Shown here piece by piece: positions 12,886 to 52,082 of a stretch of DNA of 55,616 bases (its first letter is position 1; each line of letters begins with the position of its first letter). The DNA is from a virus (taxonomy: Duplodnaviria > Caudoviricetes), in the IMG/VR virus record IMGVR_UViG_3300028045_000018, positions 1-55,616 of that record; one strand, given 5' to 3'. The notes beneath the pieces were generated by a model, which saw only the letters and a program-made list of their open reading frames with translations, searched no databases and was not told the DNA's origin. The position numbers and the translations under genes are program-made.

Positions 12886-13938
12886 ATGTCTATTTTAATT
12901 GTAAAAGTTTGTAAAATCAAAGAAGTCAAACCATTAACGAATGCCGACAAATTAGAGCTTTGTGTGGTAAACGGATGGCAATGTGTAATTCCTAAAGGGA
13001 AATATCAAACGAATGATTTGATCGTTTATTTCCCTCCTGATACTGCACTCCCAGAGACAGTAACAGACGAGATGGGGGTCTCAAATTATTGTCAAAGAAC
13101 AGATCAAGGAATGCGTATTCGTCAAGTTAGACTTCGTGGAGAACCTTCTTTCGGATTGATCGTTGATCTTCCAGACAACGTTGATTGGAAAGAAGGAGAT
13201 GCTGTTGACGAGCATTACGATGCTAAGAAATATGAGCCTCCCGTTAAAGGTCATGGTGGAGACATTCTTGGAACCAATCATGCTTTGTTTGACAAGTTCA
13301 CTGATATCCAAAATCTTCGAAACTTCGTTGATGTTTTCGAGGACGGAGAGGATATCGTTGCCACTGAGAAGTTGCATGGAACACAAGTTAGAGGTTGCAT
13401 GATCCAAGATGAGAGCGAGGGAGAGTTACTTTTCTTCGGCTCTAAACAGCATCCTCGTAAAAGACCTGAGACTGATACAGAAATGAAGTCTCATTTGTAT
13501 TGGCTCCCTTATAGCTATCAAAGCGTAAAGGATATGTTTGAAGGTCTTAAAAAAGATCACAAAGTTATCGAGATTTACGGCGAGACATATGGAAGAGTTC
13601 AGTCTCTTAGATACGGTATCAATGGACTTGCTTTTCGTTGTTTTGGTTTAAAGCTTGATGGAAGATATGTTGACTTTGATGATAGAGTCAGCATTTGTGA
13701 GAAGTATGGCGTTCCAATGGTTCCTGTGCTTTACAGAGGACCGTACAGCCTCGAAAAGATCAAAGAGGTTAGCGAAGGTAACACTACAGTCGCTGATATC
13801 GATCAGATTCGAGAAGGAACGGTTGTACAACCTGTCAAAGAGCGAACTCATCCTTCTATTGGAAGGTGTATCTTAAAATATGTGTCTGATACATATCTGA
13901 TGGGCAAACATGCAGAAAGGGACACTACCGATGCTTGA
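12886..13938 (+). CDS. RNA ligase, DRB0094/Rnl2-type with N-terminal OB-like domain
   Basis: NADKLELC..NGWQCV, motif I TEKLHGT, YGE, REGTVV, ILKY. Confidence 0.88.
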   Translation: MSILIVKVCKIKEVKPLTNADKLELCVVNGWQCVIPKGKYQTNDLIVYFPPDTALPETVTDEMGVSNYCQRTDQGMRIRQVRLRGEPSFGLIVDLPDNVDWKEGDAVDEHYDAKKYEPPVKGHGGDILGTNHALFDKFTDIQNLRNFVDVFEDGEDIVATEKLHGTQVRGCMIQDESEGELLFFGSKQHPRKRPETDTEMKSHLYWLPYSYQSVKDMFEGLKKDHKVIEIYGETYGRVQSLRYGINGLAFRCFGLKLDGRYVDFDDRVSICEKYGVPMVPVLYRGPYSLEKIKEVSEGNTTVADIDQIREGTVVQPVKERTHPSIGRCILKYVSDTYLMGKHAERDTTDA

Positions 13939-18049: not shown

Positions 18050-18060
18050 AAGGAATAAAA

Positions 18061-18195
18061 ATGGCAAGAAGAATACGTTACGAATACGATAATTGTAGGG
18101 GAAATGTCCCTACAAAACCTATGGGACCAGTAGATTGGGCTTTACTTGTCCTTCTAACTGTAGCAATAATAGGGTTTTGGGTATTTTTGGTTTAG
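18061..18195 (+). CDS. 44-aa membrane peptide (not in track)
   Basis: AAGGA SD; MARRIRYEY...WALLVLLTVAIIGFWVFLV*. Confidence 0.5.
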   Translation: MARRIRYEYDNCRGNVPTKPMGPVDWALLVLLTVAIIGFWVFLV

Positions 18196-18271
18196 AATTC
18201 CCGATTTTTTAAAAGAATACAATATAAGCAAAGGATAGAACAATGAGTAAGAAAATTAGTGGAACATTAGA

Positions 18272-18505
18272 GTTAGCTGCCTCTCTAAAGGAAACTTTAG
18301 AGAATCTCGCAAGAGATTAAGTTGACCAGACCACTGACAGGAGATTAAAAGTTGTTAGTAAACGATAAGAAAGAAATTAGAAACGAAAGTATGACGCACC
18401 AGTACTTTCCTCTTTGGTTACAGATTAAACAGTTCTGTGAGGTAGGAACAGTGTTTGTAGCGTTAAACCTTTTATTATCAGGTCGAGGTGAAGGCGAATT
18501 CTGCG
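18272..18505 (+). ncRNA. omegaRNA/HEARO-like RNA of a decayed IscB element
   Basis: GTTAGCT/AGTTGAC closing stem with two tetraloop hairpins (GAAA, GCAA); TTAAACAGTTCTG...GGAACAGTG and GTCGAGG motifs typical of IscB upstream RNAs. Confidence 0.7.
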
Positions 18506-22053: not shown

Positions 22054-22854
22054 ATGAATTCTGATTGTGCCTTTACTATAGGATCAACGCATAAGGTCTG
22101 CGAAGACTATGCCATAGCCAACGATAGTGCTGACATGTCCTTTGTCGCACTCGCTGATGGATGTTCTAGCTCCAAGGACAGCGATATAGGAGCTAGAATC
22201 CTAGTCAAAACGGTAGAAGAACTAGAAGTAATGAAAATTGATATGACTTTTAGCGGCAAGGCTTATATAGCTAACGCAAAAGCTGTATCGAATATGATGA
22301 AACTAGACCAAACTGCTTTAGACGCGACTTTATTAATGGCTAGAGTTGAAGATGGCAGATATGTTATGGGTTGTTATGGAGACGGAGTAACTGTCGTAGG
22401 ATATAAAAATGGTAAAATACTCATTCGCTCTGTATCCTTTTTAACATCTTATCCTCAATATCTTTCGTATGAACTTAATCCTCAAAGGAAAAATTCTTTC
22501 GAAAGTGTTAATAAGGGAGCTAAATTAGAAACGGTTTCAATTAACGGAGGCAGAATAACTTCTCATAGCGTAACTACTCCTATCCCAGCGTTGTTTAGGG
22601 ATAACGTTGATGATATTTCTTTCATTGCTATTATGTCTGATGGAATACATTCTTTTTACGAACAAGTTCAAACAGAAACTTCAATGACTAACAGACCAGT
22701 AGATTTTGTTACTGTTATAAAGGATCTTTTAGACATTAAAGGTCGAAAAGGATGTTTCGTTCATAGGCTCTTTAATAGTTTTAAGAAAAGTTGTGCAACC
22801 AAGAACTGGCATCATTCTGACGATTTGTCTCTTGCAGTAATCAATGTTGAATAG
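22054..22854 (+). CDS. PP2C-family protein phosphatase
   Basis: H..CED, ALADGCSS, GDG, MSDG, DDLS. Confidence 0.88.
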   Translation: MNSDCAFTIGSTHKVCEDYAIANDSADMSFVALADGCSSSKDSDIGARILVKTVEELEVMKIDMTFSGKAYIANAKAVSNMMKLDQTALDATLLMARVEDGRYVMGCYGDGVTVVGYKNGKILIRSVSFLTSYPQYLSYELNPQRKNSFESVNKGAKLETVSINGGRITSHSVTTPIPALFRDNVDDISFIAIMSDGIHSFYEQVQTETSMTNRPVDFVTVIKDLLDIKGRKGCFVHRLFNSFKKSCATKNWHHSDDLSLAVINVE

Positions 22855-22863
22855 GAATTGAAA

Positions 22864-24540
22864 ATGAAAGTTTTCGTTAAAGGTAAGGGTCAGGTCAATC
22901 TTTCCAAGACTGATTTCTTGGCTCAGGGCGGCGAAGGCAAAATTTTTGTTAAGGGTAAAACTGCGTACAAGATTTACCTAGACCCTAAAAAGATGATTCC
23001 TGTCGCAAAAATTCAAGAACTTTCATCACTTTCTTTGCCAAATATTATACGTCCAGAACGTGTTATTTTAGATAACAAGGATAACCCAGTCGGTTATACG
23101 ATGCGTTATGTAAAAGATACGACTTCTCTTTGCAAAATCTTCACAAAAACGTTCAAAAGGAAGAACAACATACAACCTGGTTGCGTAGCGGATTTAGTCA
23201 AAAAACTATATGAAGGCATTCAGCATGTACATAGCAAGCAAATTCTAATCGTTGATTTAAACGAAATGAATTTCCTTCTCAATAACAAACTTGATGATAT
23301 ATTCTTTATTGATACTGATAGTTACAAAACTAAAAGTTATAATGCTACAGCCATCATGGAAAGCATTCGAGATAGACATTCGTCTTCGTTCAGTACAAAT
23401 ACGGACTGGTTCTCATTCGGAATTATCTCATTCCAAATGTTTATAGGTATACATCCATTTAAAGGGAAGCATTCTAAATTCAAAAATCTTGATGACAGGA
23501 TGATGAATAATGTTTCGGTATTGAATAAGGCTGTATCTATACCTAAACTTTGTGCTTCTTTTGACGTAATTCCTCAAACATATAGGGAATGGTATAAAGC
23601 TGTGTTTGAGGATGGGAAAAGAGTTCCTCCACCAGGTGGATTCCAAGATCTCATTATTATTCAGCCTACTATCCATACAGTTAAAGGTAGTGATAATCTC
23701 GATATTGAAGAGTTACAAAAATACGATCAAGCTGTCATCGACTGCAAATACATTAATGGTAATAGAGTTGCGATCACTAACTCTAATATCTATATCAATG
23801 ACAAGAAAAGACCGCCAATAGCGAATGTCTTTATCGGTTCTACTCCAAAGATGGGACATGTAGTTGCGGCACGTATTGAAAATGGTCTTTTAAAATTGCA
23901 TAACGTAACTATGAGCAAAGCCATTGATTGCACAATTGCTGCTGAAAAAGTCATGTCATATGACGAAAGAATATATGTAAAGAATGGTTTAGATGTATAT
24001 GAAATCAAACTAAACGAGTTAGGCAATAGAATTATTGCAACGCCTACTATCGTAGCTAATGTCATGGAGAAGGCTACGCATGTTTACGATGGAGTTATAT
24101 TGCAAGACTTATTGGGAGCATGTTATGCTTCTATGTTCCCAGAGCCAAAAACTCACGTACAGTCCCACTTGAAAGAACTTATTGGATACAAAATAGTTGA
24201 TGCTAAATATTCTAATAGAATTCTTATGATTGTAGGACAGAAAAAAGGTAAATACGATAAACTTATCTTTAGGTTTGATTCTTCGCATCAGTCTTACGAT
24301 TTGAATATAAAGAGTGATATCGTTTATTCTGGATTGAACTTCGTAGTTCTTGATAATGGAATATGCGTACATATAAATGAAGATGAAAATATAGAGTTGT
24401 TCGTTAATAAGCTTGGAGTAACTGATACTAAGGTTGTTGACGATACAAGTATTGATGGTAACATGACTCTATACAAAAATGGTAATCAAGTTCTGTTTGC
24501 CAAAGACAACGCGATTTACAAGATGTCACTTAAGAAATGA
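22864..24540 (+). CDS. Ser/Thr protein kinase with long beta-rich C-terminal region
   Basis: LAQGGEG, AYKIY, IVDLNEMNFL, FIDTDSY, TDWFSFG, HPFKG. Confidence 0.88.
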   Translation: MKVFVKGKGQVNLSKTDFLAQGGEGKIFVKGKTAYKIYLDPKKMIPVAKIQELSSLSLPNIIRPERVILDNKDNPVGYTMRYVKDTTSLCKIFTKTFKRKNNIQPGCVADLVKKLYEGIQHVHSKQILIVDLNEMNFLLNNKLDDIFFIDTDSYKTKSYNATAIMESIRDRHSSSFSTNTDWFSFGIISFQMFIGIHPFKGKHSKFKNLDDRMMNNVSVLNKAVSIPKLCASFDVIPQTYREWYKAVFEDGKRVPPPGGFQDLIIIQPTIHTVKGSDNLDIEELQKYDQAVIDCKYINGNRVAITNSNIYINDKKRPPIANVFIGSTPKMGHVVAARIENGLLKLHNVTMSKAIDCTIAAEKVMSYDERIYVKNGLDVYEIKLNELGNRIIATPTIVANVMEKATHVYDGVILQDLLGACYASMFPEPKTHVQSHLKELIGYKIVDAKYSNRILMIVGQKKGKYDKLIFRFDSSHQSYDLNIKSDIVYSGLNFVVLDNGICVHINEDENIELFVNKLGVTDTKVVDDTSIDGNMTLYKNGNQVLFAKDNAIYKMSLKK

Positions 24541-38197: not shown

Positions 38198-39352
38198 ATG
38201 CGAATGTTTAATGATGGACCAAAGATGGCAATAATTGAAAGTCCGAAAAAAAAGGCTCTCATATCTGAACATTATAATTATGTTTTTGATAAAGAGACAG
38301 GATTTTTCGCGCGTTGGGGCAAGACCAAAGAGGAAGATCCCGATTTTTCTCCTTTCGGGCCAGAGATTCTTGACCTTGAGATTGACTCTGGTGAGTGTCT
38401 CGGCAATTGCAAGTTCTGTTACAAATGCAATGGTAGCGGCGTACCAAGTAAACATATGTCTCTCGAAGACTTTAAAACTTTACTCGAAAAAATGCCTAAA
38501 ACGCTTACCCAAATAGCTCTAGGTATCACCAATATACATTCAAATCCTGATTTCTTTGACATTATGAGACACTCCAAAGAGAAAGGCGTAATTCCGAACT
38601 ATACGACTCACGGCTTAGATGTTGATGAAGAAGCTGTTAAAATTACATCAGAGCTTTGCGGTGCAGTCGCCGTAAGTATTGTTAACAAAAACAAAACTTA
38701 TGACGCTATCAAGAAATATGTTGACGCTGGCATGGATCAAGTTAACATCCATTATATGCTCAGCGAAGAGACTTATGAGAGAGCGTTTGAAATTGTTGAA
38801 GACATGAAAACCGATGAAAGGCTTGCTGGAATGAGAGCAATCGTCTTCCTTCAATATAAGCCCAAGGGAGATACTCCAGACGCTTTCCATTCGATAAGAG
38901 ACCCAGAACAATATAAAAAACTTGTCAACTTCTGTCTTGAAAAACAAGTTAATTTCGGCTTCGATTCCTGTTCTGCACCTCTCTTTTTAAAGAGCATTGA
39001 AGGATTAGAAAGAGAAGATGATTTTGTTCAATCGGCAGAGCCTTGTGAAGGCTTTGGGATGTTTAGCTCTTATATCAATTGTGATGGCGAATTTTTCCCC
39101 TGTTCTTTCTGCGAAGGAGAAAAGGGATGGGAAGAAGGTCTTGACGCTTTAAATTGCGAAAGCTTTTTGAAAGACGTTTGGCATTCAGAAAAAATTAAAA
39201 TGTGGCGTGATATTATATTACAATCATCTGAGAACTGCGATTGTAAGTTTAGCGACGGATGCAGATCATGTCCTATTTTTGATATAACCTCTTGTAAAAA
39301 TTGGGCAGATAAAGACGAAAAAGAACTTCGTTATTGGGATACTGCTGTATAG
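38198..39352 (+). CDS. Radical SAM enzyme with C-terminal SPASM/Twitch-like domain
   Basis: CLGNCKFC (CxxxCxxC); PCEG..S.YINCDG..FPCSF...CDC.....CRSCP; class A promoter 38129-38151. Confidence 0.9.
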   Translation: MRMFNDGPKMAIIESPKKKALISEHYNYVFDKETGFFARWGKTKEEDPDFSPFGPEILDLEIDSGECLGNCKFCYKCNGSGVPSKHMSLEDFKTLLEKMPKTLTQIALGITNIHSNPDFFDIMRHSKEKGVIPNYTTHGLDVDEEAVKITSELCGAVAVSIVNKNKTYDAIKKYVDAGMDQVNIHYMLSEETYERAFEIVEDMKTDERLAGMRAIVFLQYKPKGDTPDAFHSIRDPEQYKKLVNFCLEKQVNFGFDSCSAPLFLKSIEGLEREDDFVQSAEPCEGFGMFSSYINCDGEFFPCSFCEGEKGWEEGLDALNCESFLKDVWHSEKIKMWRDIILQSSENCDCKFSDGCRSCPIFDITSCKNWADKDEKELRYWDTAV

Positions 39353-39360
39353 GAAATAAG

Positions 39361-39708
39361 ATGAAACAGAGAAACGGATTTGTTAGCAATAGTTCAAGTA
39401 CGTCATTTACGATAACAAATACATCAGATGATGATAAAACAATTGTAGATTTTATTAAAGAAAATTTACAACTTGTAGACGACTTTAACGCAATGTATGA
39501 TTGGCACAACTATTCTCACGAAGATGCAATAGAAAGTGCAAAAAACAACTATTGTGGTGATGAATATTCTTTTTCGGGGAAAGAAAAGAAAAACATCGCC
39601 TTTGGAGATGAAGAAGGAACAGTTTTAGGTAGAATCTTTGATTACATTCTTCGAGATGGTGGAACTTCTGAAAATTTCACTTGGAAGTTTGATCAATACT
39701 ATAGATAG
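39361..39708 (+). CDS. GFVSNSSS-motif protein 1
   Basis: MKQRNGFVSNSSSTSF (start 39361). Confidence 0.85.
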   Translation: MKQRNGFVSNSSSTSFTITNTSDDDKTIVDFIKENLQLVDDFNAMYDWHNYSHEDAIESAKNNYCGDEYSFSGKEKKNIAFGDEEGTVLGRIFDYILRDGGTSENFTWKFDQYYR

Positions 39709-39717
39709 GAGAATAAA

Positions 39718-39993
39718 ATGAAAATTAGAAACGGATTCGTTAGCAATAGCTCAAGTAGCTCTTTTGTAGTTAAAAAAGAAGGACTCAATGAGTTACAGAT
39801 TTATGCGATTCACAATCATATAGAAATAGTAAATAAAATGATTTTCCCTGAATGGACAGCCGAAGAGCATCCAGATGGGGCATGGAGCATAATAGAATGC
39901 GATACTGTCATTGAGCTATCTACTTCGATGGATAATTTTGATATGGAGTTTTTCCTTAATAAAATAGGTGTTCCGAAAGAAAATATATCATGA
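39718..39993 (+). CDS. GFVSNSSS-motif protein 2
   Basis: MKIRNGFVSNSSSSSF. Confidence 0.85.
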   Translation: MKIRNGFVSNSSSSSFVVKKEGLNELQIYAIHNHIEIVNKMIFPEWTAEEHPDGAWSIIECDTVIELSTSMDNFDMEFFLNKIGVPKENIS

Positions 39994-44345: not shown

Positions 44346-44610
44346 GTCAACTACCCTAAAGGAAGGGCTTGAACCGTGAGGTTCGAGAGTAATTAGTTGA
44401 TTAGTGAGCTTAATTAAGGAATTAGTTATGCAGCAGTTACAATCAAAGTTAAAGAACGCACCAAGGAATGCCTCCCTAGTTCCTTGCTCTGTAAATTCTT
44501 CATTAAACAAAGATCAAAGTCTTAGTGTGGAGAATAAAGTACTGAATTGTAACAATCACGAAGGGAATCTACCTCAACGTAAAGAGGGAAAGAACTTGAG
44601 AGTCTCTTTC
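44346..44610 (+). ncRNA. omegaRNA (HEARO-like) scaffold of IscB
   Basis: GTCAACTACCC...GGGCTTGAACC-GTGA-GGTTCGAG...TAGTTGA opening; TTAAACA motif; directly upstream of PLMP-containing ORF. Confidence 0.8.
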
Positions 44611-45813
44611 ATGGTTTACGTATTAAATTTACGAGGAGAACCTTTGATGCCATGTTCTCCGCAGAAAGCTAAGAAATTGATTAAGGAGAATTTAGCGTGT
44701 GTAGTTAGAAGAAGTCCATTTACGATTCAGTTGAAATATGCGACTGGAGAGAATAAACAGGAAGTAACATTAGGAATAGATTCTGGAGCAAAGAATATAG
44801 GTTTTAGTGCAGTTTCGAAAGAAAAAGAATTAATAAGCGGAACTGTAGTTCTTGATGATAAAATGAAATCAAGACTAGCAGATAGAAAAATGTATCGCAG
44901 AAGTAAAAGAGGCAAATTGTGGTACAGGAAACCCAGATGGAAAAATAGAGTTTCTACTAAGAAGAAAGGTTGGCTTCCACCTTCTATTTTAAGGAAATAT
45001 TTCACTCATTTAACTCTTATTAATAAAATTAAACATCTTCTTCCTATTACTAAAGTAGTAGTAGAAGTAGGAAATTTTGACATACAAAAGATTAAGAATC
45101 CTGATATTTCTGGTAAAGAGTATCAAGAAGGTGATTTATTAGGTTATAATAATGTTAAATCTTATATTTTTGCAAGAGAAAATTATATTTGTCAACTTTG
45201 TAAGAAATCAGTTATTGGAGATAAGACTAATTTACATCATATTATTCCTAAACCTGAAGGAACCGACAAAGCAGACAACTTGGCTTTATTACACAAGAAG
45301 TGCCACAAAAAACTACATGAACAAGGTTTAGAAAGTAAACTGAAGAAAAGTAAACAATATAAAGAAGCAACGTTTATGAATATTGTTAAGAATAAGTTTC
45401 AAGAAGATTTAGATTGTAAACTTGTTTTTGGTTATGAAACGTTTACTAAGAGAAATGAACTAGGAATAGGAAAATCACATATTAACGATGCTTTTGTAAT
45501 TTCAGGTGGAGAAAAACAAGAAAGAACATTACCTTTTGAAGCAACACAAAAACGTAAAAACAATAGATGTTTACAAAAAAATAGAAAAGGATTTAAACGT
45601 TCTGTTCGTAAGCAAAGATATGCTATTCAACCTAAAGACCTAGTTAAGATAGAAGGTAAGTTTTTTGAAGTCAAAGGTATATTTAGTTATGGAAAACAGA
45701 TTAGATTAGTTAATAAGGTAGGAAAAATTGTTAATAAATCAGTTAAAAAAGTGAATTGGGTTTTTCATAATAAAACGTTAATATGGAACGTAACTGTGAA
45801 TCGAAGAAAGTAA
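44611..45813 (+). mobile_element. iscB: IscB RNA-guided nuclease (IS200/IS605 OMEGA), apparently intact; no TnpA in window
   Basis: MVYVL...PLMP, LGIDSG (RuvC-I), R..RR..R bridge helix, VEVGNFD, CQLC..HHIIP..N..HKKCH (HNH), KSHINDA (RuvC-III). Confidence 0.93.
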
Positions 45814-49487: not shown

Positions 49488-49506
49488 TAGTCATGGTTAA
49501 CCCGTT

Positions 49507-49545
49507 AAAAAAGTAGGGTATGTTTACTCATATCCTACTTTTTTT
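49507..49545 (+). terminator. Rho-independent (bidirectional) terminator
   Basis: AAAAAAGTAGGGTATG-loop-CATATCCTACTTTTTTT. Confidence 0.8.
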
Positions 49546-49566
49546 AAAACTTAAAAGGAATAAAAG

Positions 49567-49746
49567 ATGAGTGAAATGAAATTTGATGTTAAAGTTTATG
49601 ATGAATCCGACGAATTGGTTGGAAAATATGTTTTTGAAGATGAAAAGTATGACATACTTTCAGCAGATGGAGCAATGGATCTTGCTAAAAGTGCTGCTGC
49701 ATGGGTAACTCCTGAAAAAGGAAGGTCTACAGTCGAAAGTAAATAG
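49567..49746 (+). CDS. 59-aa hypothetical protein (not in track)
   Basis: AAGGA SD; MSEMKFDVKVYDES...TVESK*. Confidence 0.6.
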   Translation: MSEMKFDVKVYDESDELVGKYVFEDEKYDILSADGAMDLAKSAAAWVTPEKGRSTVESK

Positions 49747-49750
49747 AAAA

Positions 49751-50083
49751 ATGGCAAAAAAGGAAAATAATATTGACAAAGAGTATTACGGACCATATAT
49801 AGTAGTACAAGAGATAACGAATAGACACTCTAAAAGATGCAATCTTTGTGGAGAGAAGCCAAAAGACATTAGAATATTGGTGAAGTCTGAAGACATATTC
49901 GAACATGGTAAAGTAGATTGTTATTGTCTCCATCATGGTATTCAATTCTTGCATCTTCAAATAGATTCTCTTAAGTCGATATTAGGTCAGATAGAGGAAA
50001 AAGAACCTATTCCCCTTGAGGTGAAAGAAGATACGTTTTGCGATTTTATTAAGTTTCGACCCACCGAAACAAAAACAATTTAA
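49751..50083 (+). CDS. Hypothetical protein (CxxC...CxxH)
   Basis: Coupled ORF. Confidence 0.6.
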   Translation: MAKKENNIDKEYYGPYIVVQEITNRHSKRCNLCGEKPKDIRILVKSEDIFEHGKVDCYCLHHGIQFLHLQIDSLKSILGQIEEKEPIPLEVKEDTFCDFIKFRPTETKTI

Positions 50084-50167
50084 TTTTTAATTAAGTTGTG
50101 ATATATTATATGTTATAATGCATCAGATCAATAAAATAGATATTTAAGACCGAAAGGTCTTTGTTCT

Positions 50168-50240
50168 GCGTCCGTAGTTGAGGGATTTAACGGCAAATTC
50201 TAAATTTGTGACTACGTGGGTTTGAATCCCACCGGACGCG
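50168..50240 (+). tRNA. Amber suppressor tRNA (anticodon CTA)
   Basis: GCGTCCG/CGGACGC, GTTG/TAAC D-stem, GCAAA-TTCTAAA-TTTGT with CTA at 50200-50202, T-loop TTTGAAT; class A promoter 50097-50119. Confidence 0.8.
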
Positions 50241-50245
50241 ATTCG

Positions 50246-50545
50246 ATGAATTGGAAACAGCATAAAGAAGATTTGCTCAAAGGTAAAGACGTAAGTTTTT
50301 GTCCTAAAGGCAATTCGATGAAGCCGAAAATTAATAGCGGAGACAAGATAACCATTTCTCCTACAGACGATATTAAAAAGGGAGATATAGTTTTTTGTAA
50401 GGTTAAAGGAAGTTTTTACGTCCATCTTGTTAAAGCCGTACAAGGCGATAAGTTCTTGATAGGTAACAACAAAGGTAGAACAAACGGATGGACTAACAAA
50501 AAAAAAGTATTTGGAAAAGTAATTAAAATTGAGAGCAAGAAATAA
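50246..50545 (+). CDS. S24/S26 peptidase-like protein
   Basis: GNSMKP.I.SGD...GDIVF...HLVK. Confidence 0.65.
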   Translation: MNWKQHKEDLLKGKDVSFCPKGNSMKPKINSGDKITISPTDDIKKGDIVFCKVKGSFYVHLVKAVQGDKFLIGNNKGRTNGWTNKKKVFGKVIKIESKK

Positions 50546-50575
50546 ATTGCCGATATTATACTTAGGAGAATAACA

Positions 50576-50935
50576 ATGAGACCATTCCAATAGACTAAAG
50601 AAGAATACGGATAGGACCAACATTTCTATGTCTACATCTTAGTAAGACATGACCTTTCTATAGCACAGCAATCCGTTCAGAGCGTCCACGCTGCGATCTG
50701 TGCGACTCAATCATTCATACAGCCTCAGAGACATCCTTCGGTCATTATATGCTCTGTAGAGGACGAGAGAGCCTTACAGAGAGCTATATTTAAGATCGAG
50801 CAGTCTGGGATCAAGTATAAAGAATTCCTAGAACCAGATATAGGGAATCAATTGACAGCCGTTGCTACGGAACCTGTATATGGAGACAGAAGGAAAGTCT
50901 TTAAAAAGTTCAAGCTTATGGGAGGTGTATCATGA
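50576..50935 (+). CDS. Pth2-like peptidyl-tRNA hydrolase with in-frame TAG at codons 6 and 13 (not in track)
   Basis: SD AGGAG 50564-68; MRPFQ*TKEEYG*DQHFYVYILVRHDLSIAQQSVQSVHAA...EPDIGNQLTAVATEP...KFKL. Confidence 0.8.
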
Positions 50936-50984
50936 TTTAATTACACTTTTTTCATAATCATTAATTTAACAAGAAAGGACAAAA

Positions 50985-51404
50985 ATGAGTTATATAGAAA
51001 ATTTAAAAAAAACAAAAAAAGAAATGTTACAAATGGAAAAAGTCTTAGAATTGTATCCAGATATTGAAGAACATACAGATAGATGGAGTAACAAAAGAAT
51101 TTCTTCTTCATCTATTAATTCTGAGACAGATCAAGTTTTTATCAATCACAATTGTGGATGTTGTGACGATTCTCCATTACAAGTCTGGCCGTATAAAAAT
51201 GTTAATGGTATTGAAGTTTTTAGTAATCCTGCCTGTTTTATAATTGGAGAAAAAATTCCATTTTATTCAGGGATAGGAGAAAGACCATACGATAATTGGC
51301 AAGAAAAACTTCGCAAAGAGAACATCACAGAAACTGTTATTAATAAAATACAAATATTCTTTAACGACAACAAACCACAACATATAGAATATGTTGATGA
51401 TTAA
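50985..51404 (+). CDS. Hypothetical protein
   Basis: AAGGA SD; HNCGCCDD. Confidence 0.7.
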   Translation: MSYIENLKKTKKEMLQMEKVLELYPDIEEHTDRWSNKRISSSSINSETDQVFINHNCGCCDDSPLQVWPYKNVNGIEVFSNPACFIIGEKIPFYSGIGERPYDNWQEKLRKENITETVINKIQIFFNDNKPQHIEYVDD

Positions 51405-51415
51405 GGAGAAACAAA

Positions 51416-51952
51416 ATGACTACAATGACAGAAACTAAAGTTTATCAATCAAAATGGGGATATCATCCCTGCGATCTTGAGACGTACAAGAAGCTTAGAA
51501 AGCTCAATCAATGGTTCATGAAAGCTCAGAGAGAGGCGGCTGAGTGGAATCGTTGGGCGCGAAAAGACAAACAGAACAGAGTTATAAGAAAGTTCATTAG
51601 AAATGATCAAGGACAGAAGATAGGATGCGAGATAGTTGGTCCTAAACCAGAACCTGTTATAGACTCTCCTTTTTGCAAAATTGATTTAAATGATGAAAGT
51701 TGTTGGAGACGATTTGATTGGACAAGAACTCCTCAAACCTATTGGCTAAGAAAACATAAATTAGATGGAAACACAAGAATTAGAGAAGAATATTGCTTCT
51801 ATTTAACGAACTTGTTTGTCAATTCTTTTGGTGTAGACATAGACTATAATAACGCCAAAAGACCTGTAACTGAGGATGCTGTGACTCCTTTGAGGAACTC
51901 GGTTAAAGAGATTAACAATTTGTACGAGAAAGTTTTTAATCTGAACAGCTAA
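51416..51952 (+). CDS. Hypothetical protein
   Basis: AAGGAG SD. Confidence 0.7.
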   Translation: MTTMTETKVYQSKWGYHPCDLETYKKLRKLNQWFMKAQREAAEWNRWARKDKQNRVIRKFIRNDQGQKIGCEIVGPKPEPVIDSPFCKIDLNDESCWRRFDWTRTPQTYWLRKHKLDGNTRIREEYCFYLTNLFVNSFGVDIDYNNAKRPVTEDAVTPLRNSVKEINNLYEKVFNLNS

Positions 51953-52082
51953 AGGATTCTATATGTAATTGTCGAATATAATACTGATAAATCGTTCGAA
52001 TCTCATAAAGGAAAGAGTATAATATTGTTTATTATGCTCTTTTTCTTTGCAAAGTGAATAAGAATATGTTATAATTAAAGTT

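What the first reader, a model, noticed from the sequence alone, without database searches (positions are those of the whole stretch)
50168..50935. Amber-suppressor tRNA next to a Pth2-like gene that needs two TAG read-throughs
Seen: a cloverleaf with anticodon CTA (50168-50240) under its own promoter. About 335 bp downstream is a strong SD and ATG (50576) opening MRPFQ*TKEEYG*DQHFYVYILVRHDL...QSVHAA...EPDIGNQLTAVA, a complete Pth2-like domain with no in-frame ATG, GTG or TTG between the second TAG and the conserved core. Both interruptions are TAG (50591, 50612) and lie in the leader before the domain, which random decay would not favour. Elsewhere TAG is an ordinary stop. Inference: a translational switch makes the hydrolase only when amber read-through is high, either because the suppressor is expressed or because RF1 is limiting. 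That is when peptidyl-tRNA recycling would be needed.
Basis: partly seen in the sequence, partly recalled or inferred. Interest (0 to 1): 0.9.

Follow-up and report, generated by a model that had tools for sequence, protein, structure and literature searches.

The report
Suppressor tRNA gates a hydrolase gene
A large marine phage carries a stop-codon-reading tRNA beside a small tRNA-hydrolase-like gene that can only be made if two stop codons at its very start are read through, and the same pairing recurs in dozens of other large phages, which gives these puzzling phage tRNAs a first clear target.

Summary
A tRNA with anticodon CUA lies at 50168-50240. At 50576-50935 there is a Pth2-fold ORF with a strong SD, an ATG, TAG at codons 6 and 13, and no ATG/GTG/TTG before the conserved core. 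It is the only gene in the window that needs TAG read-through.

The arrangement is not a one-off. In 72 IMG/VR loci plus the window (53 clusters at 80% identity), 28 clusters have a leader of 1-5 sense codons (M-x0-4), then TAG, then the domain. All 28 have a tRNA(CUA) on the same contig. Two clusters have TGA leaders, and both carry tRNA(UCA). No case is discordant.

Two related jumbo phages have orthologous canonical Pth2 genes:
- Atu_ph07 has a TGA leader and tRNA(UCA).
- Phosso has a TAG leader and tRNA(CUA).

Cultured phages BF, fHe-Yen9-04, CBB, GAP32, ME3, Arash, RsoM2USA, RAS14 and XacN1 show the same leader. Their records leave the gene unannotated or truncated.

Leader stops are followed by a purine in 28 of 30 cases. 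Contigs from four marine metagenome runs keep both TAGs.

Best reading: translation of a Pth2-family hydrolase is gated by the phage's own cognate suppressor tRNA. The gate rests on comparative evidence only, and its purpose is inferred. My literature searches found no description of it.

The parts
50168..50240 (+). tRNA with anticodon CUA (amber suppressor); amino-acid identity unresolved
   Evidence: ARAGORN; Infernal RF00005 at 51.6 bits. Close relatives carry it 410-863 nt upstream of the gene on the same strand in 7 of 7 metagenome contigs.
50246..50545 (+). 99-aa S24-peptidase-like ORF between the tRNA and the gated gene. It is conserved in this clade; its membership of the module is uncertain.
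   Evidence: Pfam Peptidase_S24 at E 2.1e-10. It is 84-97% identical and in the same position in 7 of 7 close relatives, and there is a 44% copy in L052.
50564..50568 (+). Shine-Dalgarno AGGAG, 7 nt before the leader ATG
   Evidence: read from the sequence
50576..50626 (+). Leader: ATG, 4 sense codons, TAG, 6 sense codons, TAG, 4 sense codons (MRPFQ*TKEEYG*DQHF)
   Evidence: Translation. The double-TAG leader is conserved in L170, L172, L174/L175 and L177. Those copies show synonymous changes between the two TAGs.
50591..50593 (+). first in-frame TAG (codon 6), followed by A
   Evidence: unchanged in contigs of 4 runs
50612..50614 (+). second in-frame TAG (codon 13), followed by G; it is TCG (Ser) in relative L171
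50627..50935 (+). Pth2-fold domain and stop codon (TGA at 50933-50935)
   Evidence: Profile versus PDB Pth2. AF2 pLDDT 93.6. Foldseek matches to Pth2 at query-normalised TM 0.72-0.80. A natural variant haplotype has 14 nt changes in 13 codons: 9 codons change only synonymously at the third position and 4 change the amino acid.

Best explanation
The tRNA(CUA) and the Pth2-like gene form a two-part module. Ribosomes start at the SD-served ATG at 50576 and after 5 codons meet a TAG. Release factor 1 then ends translation with a pentapeptide, unless the phage's own amber-suppressor tRNA inserts an amino acid. The same choice recurs at codon 13.

Only double read-through yields the roughly 119-aa Pth2-fold protein. 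Its amount should therefore rise steeply, about with the square of suppressor activity.

The gate itself is inferred from comparative evidence. That evidence is conservation of the leader stop, exclusive pairing with a cognate suppressor tRNA, stop/anticodon covariation and the read-through-friendly context.

What the gate is for is also inferred. My preferred reading (about 35-40%) is feed-forward coupling: a specialised hydrolase acting on tRNA 3' ends is made in proportion to suppression, to clear or recycle peptidyl-tRNAs that suppression generates. Other possibilities:
- negative feedback on the suppressor (about 20%);
- a pure timing gate or AND gate (about 20%).
For: (1) Conservation. 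In 72 IMG/VR loci found by protein pattern alone, plus the window, there are 53 clusters at 80% identity.
- 28 clusters have a leader of 1-5 sense codons, then TAG, with no start codon between the stop and the domain.
- 2 clusters (L108, L066) have the same layout with TGA.
- By the stricter test, 15 of the 29 clusters examined (L066 was not among them) have no ATG/GTG/TTG anywhere up to the conserved Arg.

(2) Pairing.
- 56 of 72 loci hold a suppressor tRNA within about 10 kb.
- All 60 suppressor tRNAs counted (59 in these loci plus the window's) lie on the gene's strand, at a median distance of 1.1 kb.
- In 29 of 30 loci with exactly one tRNA, that tRNA is a suppressor (binomial 3e-40 against a 3.9% background).
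- The 4 gated clusters without a nearby suppressor have a tRNA(CUA) elsewhere on the contig. That makes 28 of 28.

(3) Covariation.
- TAG leaders pair only with CUA and TGA leaders only with UCA: 28/0 and 0/2 (Fisher 0.0023).
- L084's leader MES-TGA-VLDKT mirrors the BF-type MAH-TAG-NEKT, and its tRNA is UCA.
- A second Pth2 subfamily gives an independent case. Atu_ph07 reads MIGEHF-TGA-... and has tRNA(UCA). Its 73%-identical orthologue in Phosso reads MKY-TAG-..., and that phage has two tRNA(CUA) and gave no hit to the UCA pattern.

(4) Control. K64-1 starts with a plain ATG, and none of its 7 tRNAs is a suppressor.

(5) Context. The base after the leader stop is A in 16, G in 12, C in 2 and T in 0 of 30 cases. 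After TAG ends of long ORFs it is 59/50/45/42 (Fisher 3e-5). A purine at +4 favours suppressor tRNAs (PMC6266110, passages read).

(6) Coding signal upstream of the domain.
- The peptide between the two TAGs (xEKEEYG) is conserved with synonymous changes.
- In the longer fusion forms, residues are conserved from the first codon after the TAG. RAS14 has no ATG there at all.

(7) The TAGs are real, and the frame is under purifying selection in nature.

(8) The gated copy is an extra paralogue. Atu_ph07 also has two ungated Pth2 genes, and XacN1 has an ungated annotated Pth2.
Against: - No experiment, RNA data or peptide shows read-through. No RNA holder was listed.
- In 14 of 29 gated clusters a GTG, TTG or (in 4) ATG codon lies inside the first beta strand. 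It could give some ungated initiation, although none has an evident SD.
- 12 clusters have a nearby tRNA(CUA) but an ungated or ambiguous start, so the tRNA-gene linkage does not depend on the gate.
- One database protein, P0006, is 75% identical and reads Q at the first TAG site and nothing at the second. Its DNA was not recovered.
- TAG ends 15 of 92 ORFs in the window and about 20% of long open frames in suppressor-bearing loci, with no closer back-up stops. Strong suppression would therefore extend many phage proteins.
- Hydrolase activity is unproven. The window protein is below Pfam's cut-off. The Gly-Lys loop of canonical Pth2 is absent in the printed alignment.
- The tRNA's charging is unknown. 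Its T loop reads UUUGAAU rather than UUCGAAU.
- The clusters are related to each other, so the counts overstate the number of independent events.
Confidence: 0.8

Rival explanations
1. The leader is a separate mini-ORF (ATG, 1-5 codons, stop). The hydrolase is made by re-initiation or by a non-canonical or internal start just after it. The suppressor tRNA is nearby only because the gene sits among tRNA genes.
For: - 10 of 30 leader stops are followed by an Ile codon (ATH), and 4 by Val.
- 14 of 29 gated clusters have GTG, TTG or ATG inside the first strand.
- L068 and L095 have an ATG directly after the TAG.
- Short ORFs are known to load Pth (PMC2490762 and PMC10192219, search listing only; the lambda bar minigenes are recalled).
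Against: - 16 of 30 stops are followed by codons that cannot start translation.
- 15 of 29 clusters have no start codon at all before the conserved Arg.
- It does not explain the TAG/CUA and TGA/UCA covariation.
- It does not explain why the only tRNA within 10 kb is a suppressor in 29 of 30 loci.
- It does not explain the +4 purine bias, or the protein-level conservation between the window clade's two TAGs.
Confidence: 0.07
2. The phage reassigns TAG genome-wide or in its late genes (code 15), and the leader TAGs are just ordinary sense codons.
For: - Phage suppressor tRNAs are best known from recoded phages (bioRxiv 10.1101/2021.08.26.457843 and PMC13037316, passages read).
- Three gated clusters (L059/L063, L069, L109) also have a TAG inside the domain, as does the ungated L100.
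- P0006 reads Q at the first TAG site.
Against: - Reading TAG as sense adds almost no long-ORF length in the window: 33,561 to 34,845 nt for ORFs of 200 aa or more.
- 15 of 92 ORFs end in TAG, and no other gene needs read-through.
- The XacN1 authors read through all 18 annotated amber stops and found nothing (PMC5852040, passage read).
- TAGs concentrate in a leader of about 2-17 codons (30 stops in 29 clusters). The roughly 100-codon domain carries one in only 3 of those clusters.
- TGA leaders with UCA tRNAs show the same layout.
Confidence: 0.05
3. Read-through senses release-factor 1 activity, or occurs by near-cognate host tRNAs. The phage tRNA(CUA) serves other targets.
For: An early in-frame stop acts as a release-factor sensor in prfB (recalled). 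The two readings are not mutually exclusive, because RF1 and the suppressor compete at the same codon.
Against: - The stop/anticodon covariation and tight linkage point to the tRNA as the partner.
- The purine bias at +4 fits tRNA decoding.
- Two stops in series would give almost no product from spontaneous read-through alone (inference).
Confidence: 0.06
4. The gene is decaying (a pseudogene), or the TAGs are assembly errors.
For: Database records leave the gene unannotated or truncated in BF, fHe-Yen9-04, CBB, GAP32, RsoM2USA, Arash, RAS14 and Atu_ph07.
Against: - The same feature occurs in 30 clusters with intact domains.
- Both TAGs are present in contigs of 4 runs from 4 studies.
- In a natural variant, 9 of the 13 changed codons change only synonymously at the third position.
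- The fold prediction is confident.
Confidence: 0.01

Closest known systems
Stop-codon recoding in phages with phage-encoded suppressor tRNAs (codes 15 and 4; Borges et al. preprint 10.1101/2021.08.26.457843, passages read)
   Same: A phage-encoded suppressor tRNA lets in-frame stop codons be decoded, and this is proposed to switch on a subset of genes.
   Different: Here the genome otherwise uses the standard code. Only one gene is affected, and the stops sit only in a short leader before the domain. The target is a specific enzyme family genetically linked to the tRNA. That preprint contains neither 'hydrolase' nor 'peptidyl' (0 occurrences).
prfB (release factor 2) autoregulatory in-frame UGA (recalled, not tested here)
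   Same: An early in-frame stop codon in a translation-related gene makes its output depend on how efficiently that stop is terminated.
   Different: prfB escapes by a +1 frameshift and senses its own product. Here the frame is kept and the sensed quantity is a separately encoded tRNA.
Canonical Pth2 peptidyl-tRNA hydrolase (PF01981; archaeal Pth2, human Bit1/PTRH2)
   Same: Same fold, at query-normalised TM 0.72-0.80. Shared VR-DL...VQ-HA motif. Iyer et al. 2021 noted PTH2 in jumbo phages and proposed ribosome rescue (PMC7824862, passages read).
   Different: The window protein is below Pfam's cut-off. The loop carrying Gly-Lys is missing. No activity is known. That review contains neither 'suppressor' nor 'stop codon'.
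Synthetic suppressor-tRNA feed-forward gate (PMC7969014; title and start of abstract seen only)
   Same: Same logic: expression needs both the mRNA and a suppressor tRNA that reads an amber codon in the gene.
   Different: That system is engineered. This one is natural, conserved and tied to one enzyme family.
Minigenes and early peptidyl-tRNA drop-off (PMC2490762 and PMC10192219, search listing only; lambda bar recalled)
   Same: An ORF of 2-6 codons with a strong SD followed by a stop is the kind of ORF that yields peptidyl-tRNA, the substrate of Pth.
   Different: Here the mini-ORF is in frame with, and fused to, a Pth-like gene, and it is paired with a cognate suppressor tRNA.

Membership tests
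tRNA (Rfam RF00005), amber suppressor | Cloverleaf that scores above the family threshold | tested here: met
   51.6 bits against a gathering score of 29; also called by ARAGORN
tRNA (Rfam RF00005), amber suppressor | Anticodon CUA in a 7-nt loop with U33 and a purine at 37 | tested here: met
   The loop reads UU-CUA-AA
tRNA (Rfam RF00005), amber suppressor | Expressed, aminoacylated and able to decode UAG | not testable with these tools
   No RNA run holds the stretch. The amino-acid identity is unresolved. The label 'Pyl' is ARAGORN's name for the anticodon only.
Pth2 (PF01981) | Score above Pfam's gathering threshold | tested here: not met
   18.8 bits against 23, E 0.0019. NCBIfam Pth2 models give no hit for the window domain.
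Pth2 (PF01981) | Profile-level homology to solved Pth2 proteins | tested here: met
   A 46-sequence profile matches 24bt_A (E 3.4e-6), 1rzw and 2zv3
Pth2 (PF01981) | Pth2 fold | tested here: met
   AF2 pLDDT 93.6. The 11 best Foldseek hits are Pth2/Bit1-type chains (one, 1rlk, is titled 'protein of unknown function'); query-normalised TM 0.70-0.80, E 2e-6 to 4e-5.
Pth2 (PF01981) | Catalytic residues (a Lys in the Gly-Lys loop, an Asp and a Thr; this list is recalled) | tested here: inconclusive
   An acidic pair (E73/D75 of the domain) aligns at the DAG motif. The Gly-Lys loop is deleted. No residue-level structural superposition was made.
Pth2 (PF01981) | Hydrolysis of peptidyl-tRNA | not testable with these tools
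   none
Programmed stop-codon read-through (recoding site) | In-frame stop conserved in homologues at the same place in the gene | tested here: met
   30 of 53 clusters, plus BF, fHe-Yen9-04, CBB, GAP32, ME3, Arash, RsoM2USA, RAS14, XacN1, Atu_ph07 and Phosso
Programmed stop-codon read-through (recoding site) | Coding-type conservation on both sides of the stop | tested here: met
   The inter-TAG peptide is conserved with synonymous changes. Residues directly after the TAG are conserved in the fusion forms.
Programmed stop-codon read-through (recoding site) | Full-length product observed | not testable with these tools
   No proteomic or ribosome-profiling data were available
Genetic code 15 phage (TAG = Gln throughout) | Many genes interrupted by TAG and low coding density under the standard code | tested here: not met

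The most novel reading that the evidence does not exclude
In standard-code phages the suppressor tRNA and the stop-gated Pth2-like hydrolase form a self-contained regulatory pair. The hydrolase, made only through suppression, acts back on the suppressor tRNA or its peptidyl or aminoacyl forms. This would hold read-through at a set level. The pair would then be the first client from which wholesale stop-codon recoding of phage late genes later evolved.
Probability: 0.2. Interest if true: 0.95.

Novelty: new variant of a known kind. Interest (0 to 1): 0.87.

Why it matters
Suppressor tRNAs in phages that use the standard code have had no known target. The XacN1 authors searched and found none (PMC5852040). 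The Atu_ph07 and RsoM2USA papers only note that many stops exist.

This finding gives a specific, conserved target and a testable logic: a natural tRNA-operated translational gate on a translation-recycling enzyme. It matters in four further ways.
- It shows that genome records systematically miss or truncate this gene.
- It offers a compact natural part for synthetic biology (leader plus tRNA).
- It links to how stop-codon recoding may begin in phages.
- Several members are cultured phages of easily grown hosts, so the prediction can be tested directly.

Tried and rejected
- blastn of 49500-52000 against phage records found nothing.
Bacterial genomes and prophages were therefore not surveyed.
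- P0006 gave no relative in viral contigs. Its own DNA was not among the 8 metagenome loci.
- The code-15 test by long-ORF gain across loci was noisy and depended on GC content. It was clear only for the window.
- The back-up-stop and TAG-avoidance test found no signal. The median distance to the next stop after TAG was 22 codons, against 12 and 16 for the other two stops.
- Pfam on the N-terminal domains of the long forms found nothing significant.
- The fusion form (L055) was folded at pLDDT 92.2. Its N-terminal helical domain weakly resembles class II tRNA nucleotidyltransferase entries titled 'tRNA processing enzyme' (3wfr and others, E 1e-4, TM 0.39/0.26) and HD phosphohydrolases (E 0.06-0.1). 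I treat this as a hint only.
- The pattern search TTCTAAA was useless, and a loose UCA pattern gave mostly noise.
- PF01981 searched against the window's own record gave no hit.
- The promoter scan found no sigma-70 site upstream of the tRNA.
- No RNA holder was listed.
- The tRNA's amino-acid identity could not be settled from sequence. There are 51 distinct suppressors, all with a short variable arm. G001 and G002 carry 86- and 93-nt ones.
- I considered and rejected re-initiation, genome-wide recoding, pseudogene and sequencing error (see rivals).
- Supplementary files of the cited papers were not opened. The tRNA tables of XacN1, Atu_ph07 and RsoM2USA are in supplements.
Full report
WHAT IS IN THE WINDOW

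The window is a linear IMG/VR virus record with an estimated completeness of 27%. It has 34% GC and 14 tRNA genes. The stretch is held by marine and seawater metagenome runs from several studies.

ARAGORN and Infernal both find a tRNA at 50168-50240. It has anticodon CUA, a perfect 7-bp acceptor stem and G73. A 99-aa S24-peptidase-like ORF starts five bases after it, at 50246-50545. Then comes AGGAG, a 7-nt spacer and the ATG at 50576.

The frame from 50576 reads MRPFQ-TAG-TKEEYG-TAG-DQHF. It then runs through a roughly 100-residue domain to TGA at 50935. No ATG, GTG or TTG lies between the second TAG and the conserved Arg of the first strand.

The simple sigma-70 scan found no promoter directly upstream of the tRNA. 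That detail of the finding is therefore unconfirmed.

THE DOMAIN

- Pfam PTH2 matches only weakly: 18.8 bits against a cut-off of 23.
- PHROGs places the protein in two families of unknown function.
- A profile of 46 sequences matches solved Pth2 chains. The 46 are the window plus 45 of the 61 distinct domain translations from IMG/VR. I kept those of 85-125 aa and left out four near-identical BF-type rows.
- The AlphaFold model built on that alignment has pLDDT 93.6.
- Its 11 best Foldseek matches are archaeal Pth2-type chains and human Bit1, at query-normalised TM 0.70-0.80.

The protein therefore has the Pth2 fold. In the printed alignment the Gly-Lys loop of canonical Pth2 is missing, and no activity is known.

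The family is large. The profile finds 4,055 representative clusters at E <= 1e-3 among 1.84 billion proteins. About 30 of the best 150 predicted proteins begin inside the first strand, as if gene callers had found no start.

TAG ELSEWHERE IN THE WINDOW

Reading TAG as sense adds almost nothing to long-ORF length. A crude gene call gives 92 ORFs, of which 54 end in TAA, 23 in TGA and 15 in TAG.

Four gaps exceed 250 nt. Two hold tRNAs, one is this gene, and one (18050-18351) was not examined.

Two same-frame ORF pairs are separated by a single TAG. Both are separate genes with their own ATG:
- a PP2C phosphatase followed by a protein kinase;
- two tandem paralogues.

ARE THE TAGs REAL?

I laid contigs of four runs from four studies on 50100-51000. 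None shows a difference at either TAG. A 993-nt variant contig spans both TAGs while differing at 5 other places. One of the runs may be the window's own source.

A second haplotype carries 14 nucleotide changes in 13 codons within 50781-50889. Nine of those codons change only synonymously at the third position, and four change the amino acid. The frame is therefore under purifying selection.

CULTURED RELATIVES

tblastn against phage records finds 38 records, nearly all jumbo phages. Homology starts at about residue 15-18.

Leaders in cultured phages:
- Serratia phage BF reads MTH-TAG-NDKT.
- Yersinia phage fHe-Yen9-04 reads MSH-TAG-IDKT.
- Pectobacterium phage CBB and Cronobacter phage GAP32 both read MAQ-TAG-NEKT.

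In all four the leader is in frame with the domain. The records either lack the gene or start it at an internal ATG. Each of these phages has a tRNA(CUA) 3.1-4.3 kb downstream on the same strand.

K64-1 starts with a plain ATG, and none of its 7 tRNAs is a suppressor.

Further cultured cases:
- RsoM2USA reads ML-TAG and has a tRNA(CUA) about 13 kb away.
- Acinetobacter phage ME3 reads MT-TAG, with the tRNA about 520 nt upstream.
- Salmonella phage Arash reads ML-TAG, with the tRNA 1.3 kb downstream. The record labels that tRNA as tRNA-Phe.

In XacN1 and RAS14 the domain is the C-terminal part of a protein of about 280 aa. That longer ORF also begins MK-TAG. In RAS14 no ATG follows the TAG, and the annotated GTG start cuts off conserved residues. 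RAS14 has a tRNA(CUA). [quoted passage not shown]

UNCULTURED RELATIVES

The search for related loci works on protein patterns only. It returned 72 IMG/VR loci. With the window these form 53 clusters at 80% identity.

The script classed 27 clusters as TAG-gated and one (L108) as TGA-gated. By eye I added two more:
- the window, which the script missed because of its second TAG;
- L066, which has a 10-codon leader ending in TGA.

That gives 28 TAG-gated and 2 TGA-gated clusters. The other 23 are ungated or ambiguous:
- 12 have a tRNA(CUA) nearby;
- 2 have a tRNA(UCA) nearby (L084 and L114/L115);
- 9 have none nearby.

tRNA findings:
- ARAGORN finds a suppressor tRNA in 56 of 72 loci.
- All 60 suppressor tRNAs counted (59 in these loci plus the window's) are on the gene's strand, at a median distance of 1.1 kb.
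- In 29 of 30 loci with exactly one tRNA, that tRNA is a suppressor.

Four gated clusters had no suppressor nearby. All four were resolved:
- L094 has two tRNA(CUA) that ARAGORN missed. One has C33 and one has an insert.
- L070's contig has one about 14 kb away on the other strand.
- The 527-kb and 572-kb phages of L051 and L054 carry one elsewhere.

No TAG leader is paired with only a UCA tRNA, and no TGA leader is paired with only a CUA tRNA (Fisher 0.0023). Because the clusters are related to each other, these numbers overstate independence.

THE WINDOW'S OWN CLADE

Seven metagenome contigs 73-81% identical to P0006 were recovered. The relatives read as follows:
- L170, L172, L174/L175 and L177 keep both TAGs.
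- L171 keeps the first TAG and has TCG (Ser) at the second.
- L173 has a single TAG at codon 3.

All seven have a tRNA(CUA) 410-863 nt upstream. All seven keep the S24-like gene in between. The peptide between the two TAGs is conserved, with synonymous changes.

One database protein, P0006, reads Q at the first TAG site. Its DNA was not recovered. I cannot tell whether that Q is a Gln codon or a TAG translated under code 15.

AN INDEPENDENT SUBFAMILY

Atu_ph07 has one suppressor tRNA, with anticodon UCA (PMC6102473; ARAGORN). It has three canonical PF01981 genes. One of them reads MIGEHF-TGA and then 22 codons without a start before the first strand. The record's CDS for that gene begins inside the domain.

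The 73%-identical orthologue in Sinorhizobium phage Phosso reads MKY-TAG instead, again with no start codon after the stop. I predicted a CUA tRNA in Phosso and found two, one of them about 4.6 kb upstream on the same strand. The UCA pattern gave no hit in Phosso. The CUA pattern gave no tRNA(CUA) in Atu_ph07.

CONTEXT OF THE LEADER STOP

I examined 30 leader stops: one from each of 28 clusters plus the window's two. The next base is A in 16, G in 12, C in 2 and T in 0. After TAG ends of long ORFs in the same loci the counts are 59, 50, 45 and 42 (Fisher 3e-5). Purines at +4 raise suppression by suppressor tRNAs (PMC6266110, passages read).

The stricter test covered 29 clusters (those 28 plus the window; L066 was not examined). 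In 15 of them no start codon occurs anywhere before the conserved Arg. In the other 14 a Val, Leu or Met codon inside the first strand could serve as a weak alternative start.

INTERPRETATION

The simplest account of all this is that the hydrolase ORF is translated from the leader ATG only when the phage's cognate suppressor tRNA decodes the leader stop. In the window two stops in series make the dependence steeper.

Why a Pth2-like enzyme should be gated this way is not shown. Three facts bear on it:
- Gated copies coexist with ungated Pth2 genes in Atu_ph07 and XacN1. This suggests a specialised role tied to suppression.
- The N-terminal domain of the fusion form weakly resembles tRNA nucleotidyltransferase entries and HD phosphohydrolases. 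This is a hint that the enzyme works on tRNA 3' ends.
- TAG is neither avoided nor backed up by a second stop in these phages. This argues that suppression is moderate or restricted in time.

LITERATURE

Eight full-text searches were run. The six on suppressor tRNAs, Pth2 and phage recoding found no paper that links a leader stop in a Pth2 gene to a suppressor tRNA; the other two concerned minigenes and codon context. I also read passages of eight papers.
- The jumbo-phage review notes PTH2 and proposes ribosome rescue, but contains neither 'suppressor' nor 'stop codon'.
- The recoding preprint contains neither 'hydrolase' nor 'peptidyl'.

Noticed in passing
window 50246-50545: A stand-alone 99-aa S24 (LexA/UmuD/signal-peptidase-like) ORF sits between the tRNA(CUA) and the gated gene. 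It is conserved there in 7 of 7 close relatives (84-97% identity), and there is a 44% copy in L052. Its role is unknown.
   Followed up: partly
L085, L094, L095, L099, L122 (IMG/VR loci): The Pth2-like ORF has no stop before the tRNA(CUA) that begins about 291-306 nt after the domain start. The frame runs through the whole tRNA gene. If the tRNA is cut out of the transcript, the hydrolase mRNA would be left without a stop codon.
   Followed up: no
L082 13817-13888; L094 10295-10367: These tRNA(CUA) genes have C instead of U at position 33 of the anticodon loop. Infernal finds them and ARAGORN misses them. L094 10434-10536 and L070 13425-13523 carry inserts of about 28-33 nt.
   Followed up: partly
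L039, L042, L045 (BF, fHe-Yen9-04, CBB suppressor tRNAs): As ARAGORN prints these sequences, two positions in the middle of the acceptor stem look mismatched. GAP32's stem is fully paired. This was read by eye only.
   Followed up: no
L150 (G001, the 527-kb phage of L051); L154 and L156 (G002, the 572-kb phage of L054): G001 has adjacent tRNA(CUA) and tRNA(UUA) genes among 60 tRNAs. G002 has both tRNA(CUA) and tRNA(UCA) among 40. The CUA tRNAs in these two phages are long, at 86 and 93 nt.
   Followed up: no
window 22054-24540: A PP2C-type phosphatase (266 aa) and a protein kinase (557 aa) lie in the same frame, separated by one TAG. The kinase has its own ATG 4 codons later. A read-through fusion is possible but not needed.
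   Followed up: partly
window 39334-39993: Two tandem paralogues (MKQRNGFVSNSSS... and MKIRNGFVSNSSS...) lie in one frame, separated by a TAG.
   Followed up: no
window 12886-13938 and 44404-45813: An RNA ligase with an OB-fold domain, and an RRXRR/HNH endonuclease inside the tRNA region. These suggest tRNA repair and homing functions in the same phage.
   Followed up: no
L125 7301-7372 (Salmonella phage Arash record): The tRNA annotated as tRNA-Phe in the record has anticodon CUA by ARAGORN.
   Followed up: partly
window 18050-18351: A 302-nt gap with no ORF of 50 aa or more in the crude gene call. It was not examined.
   Followed up: no
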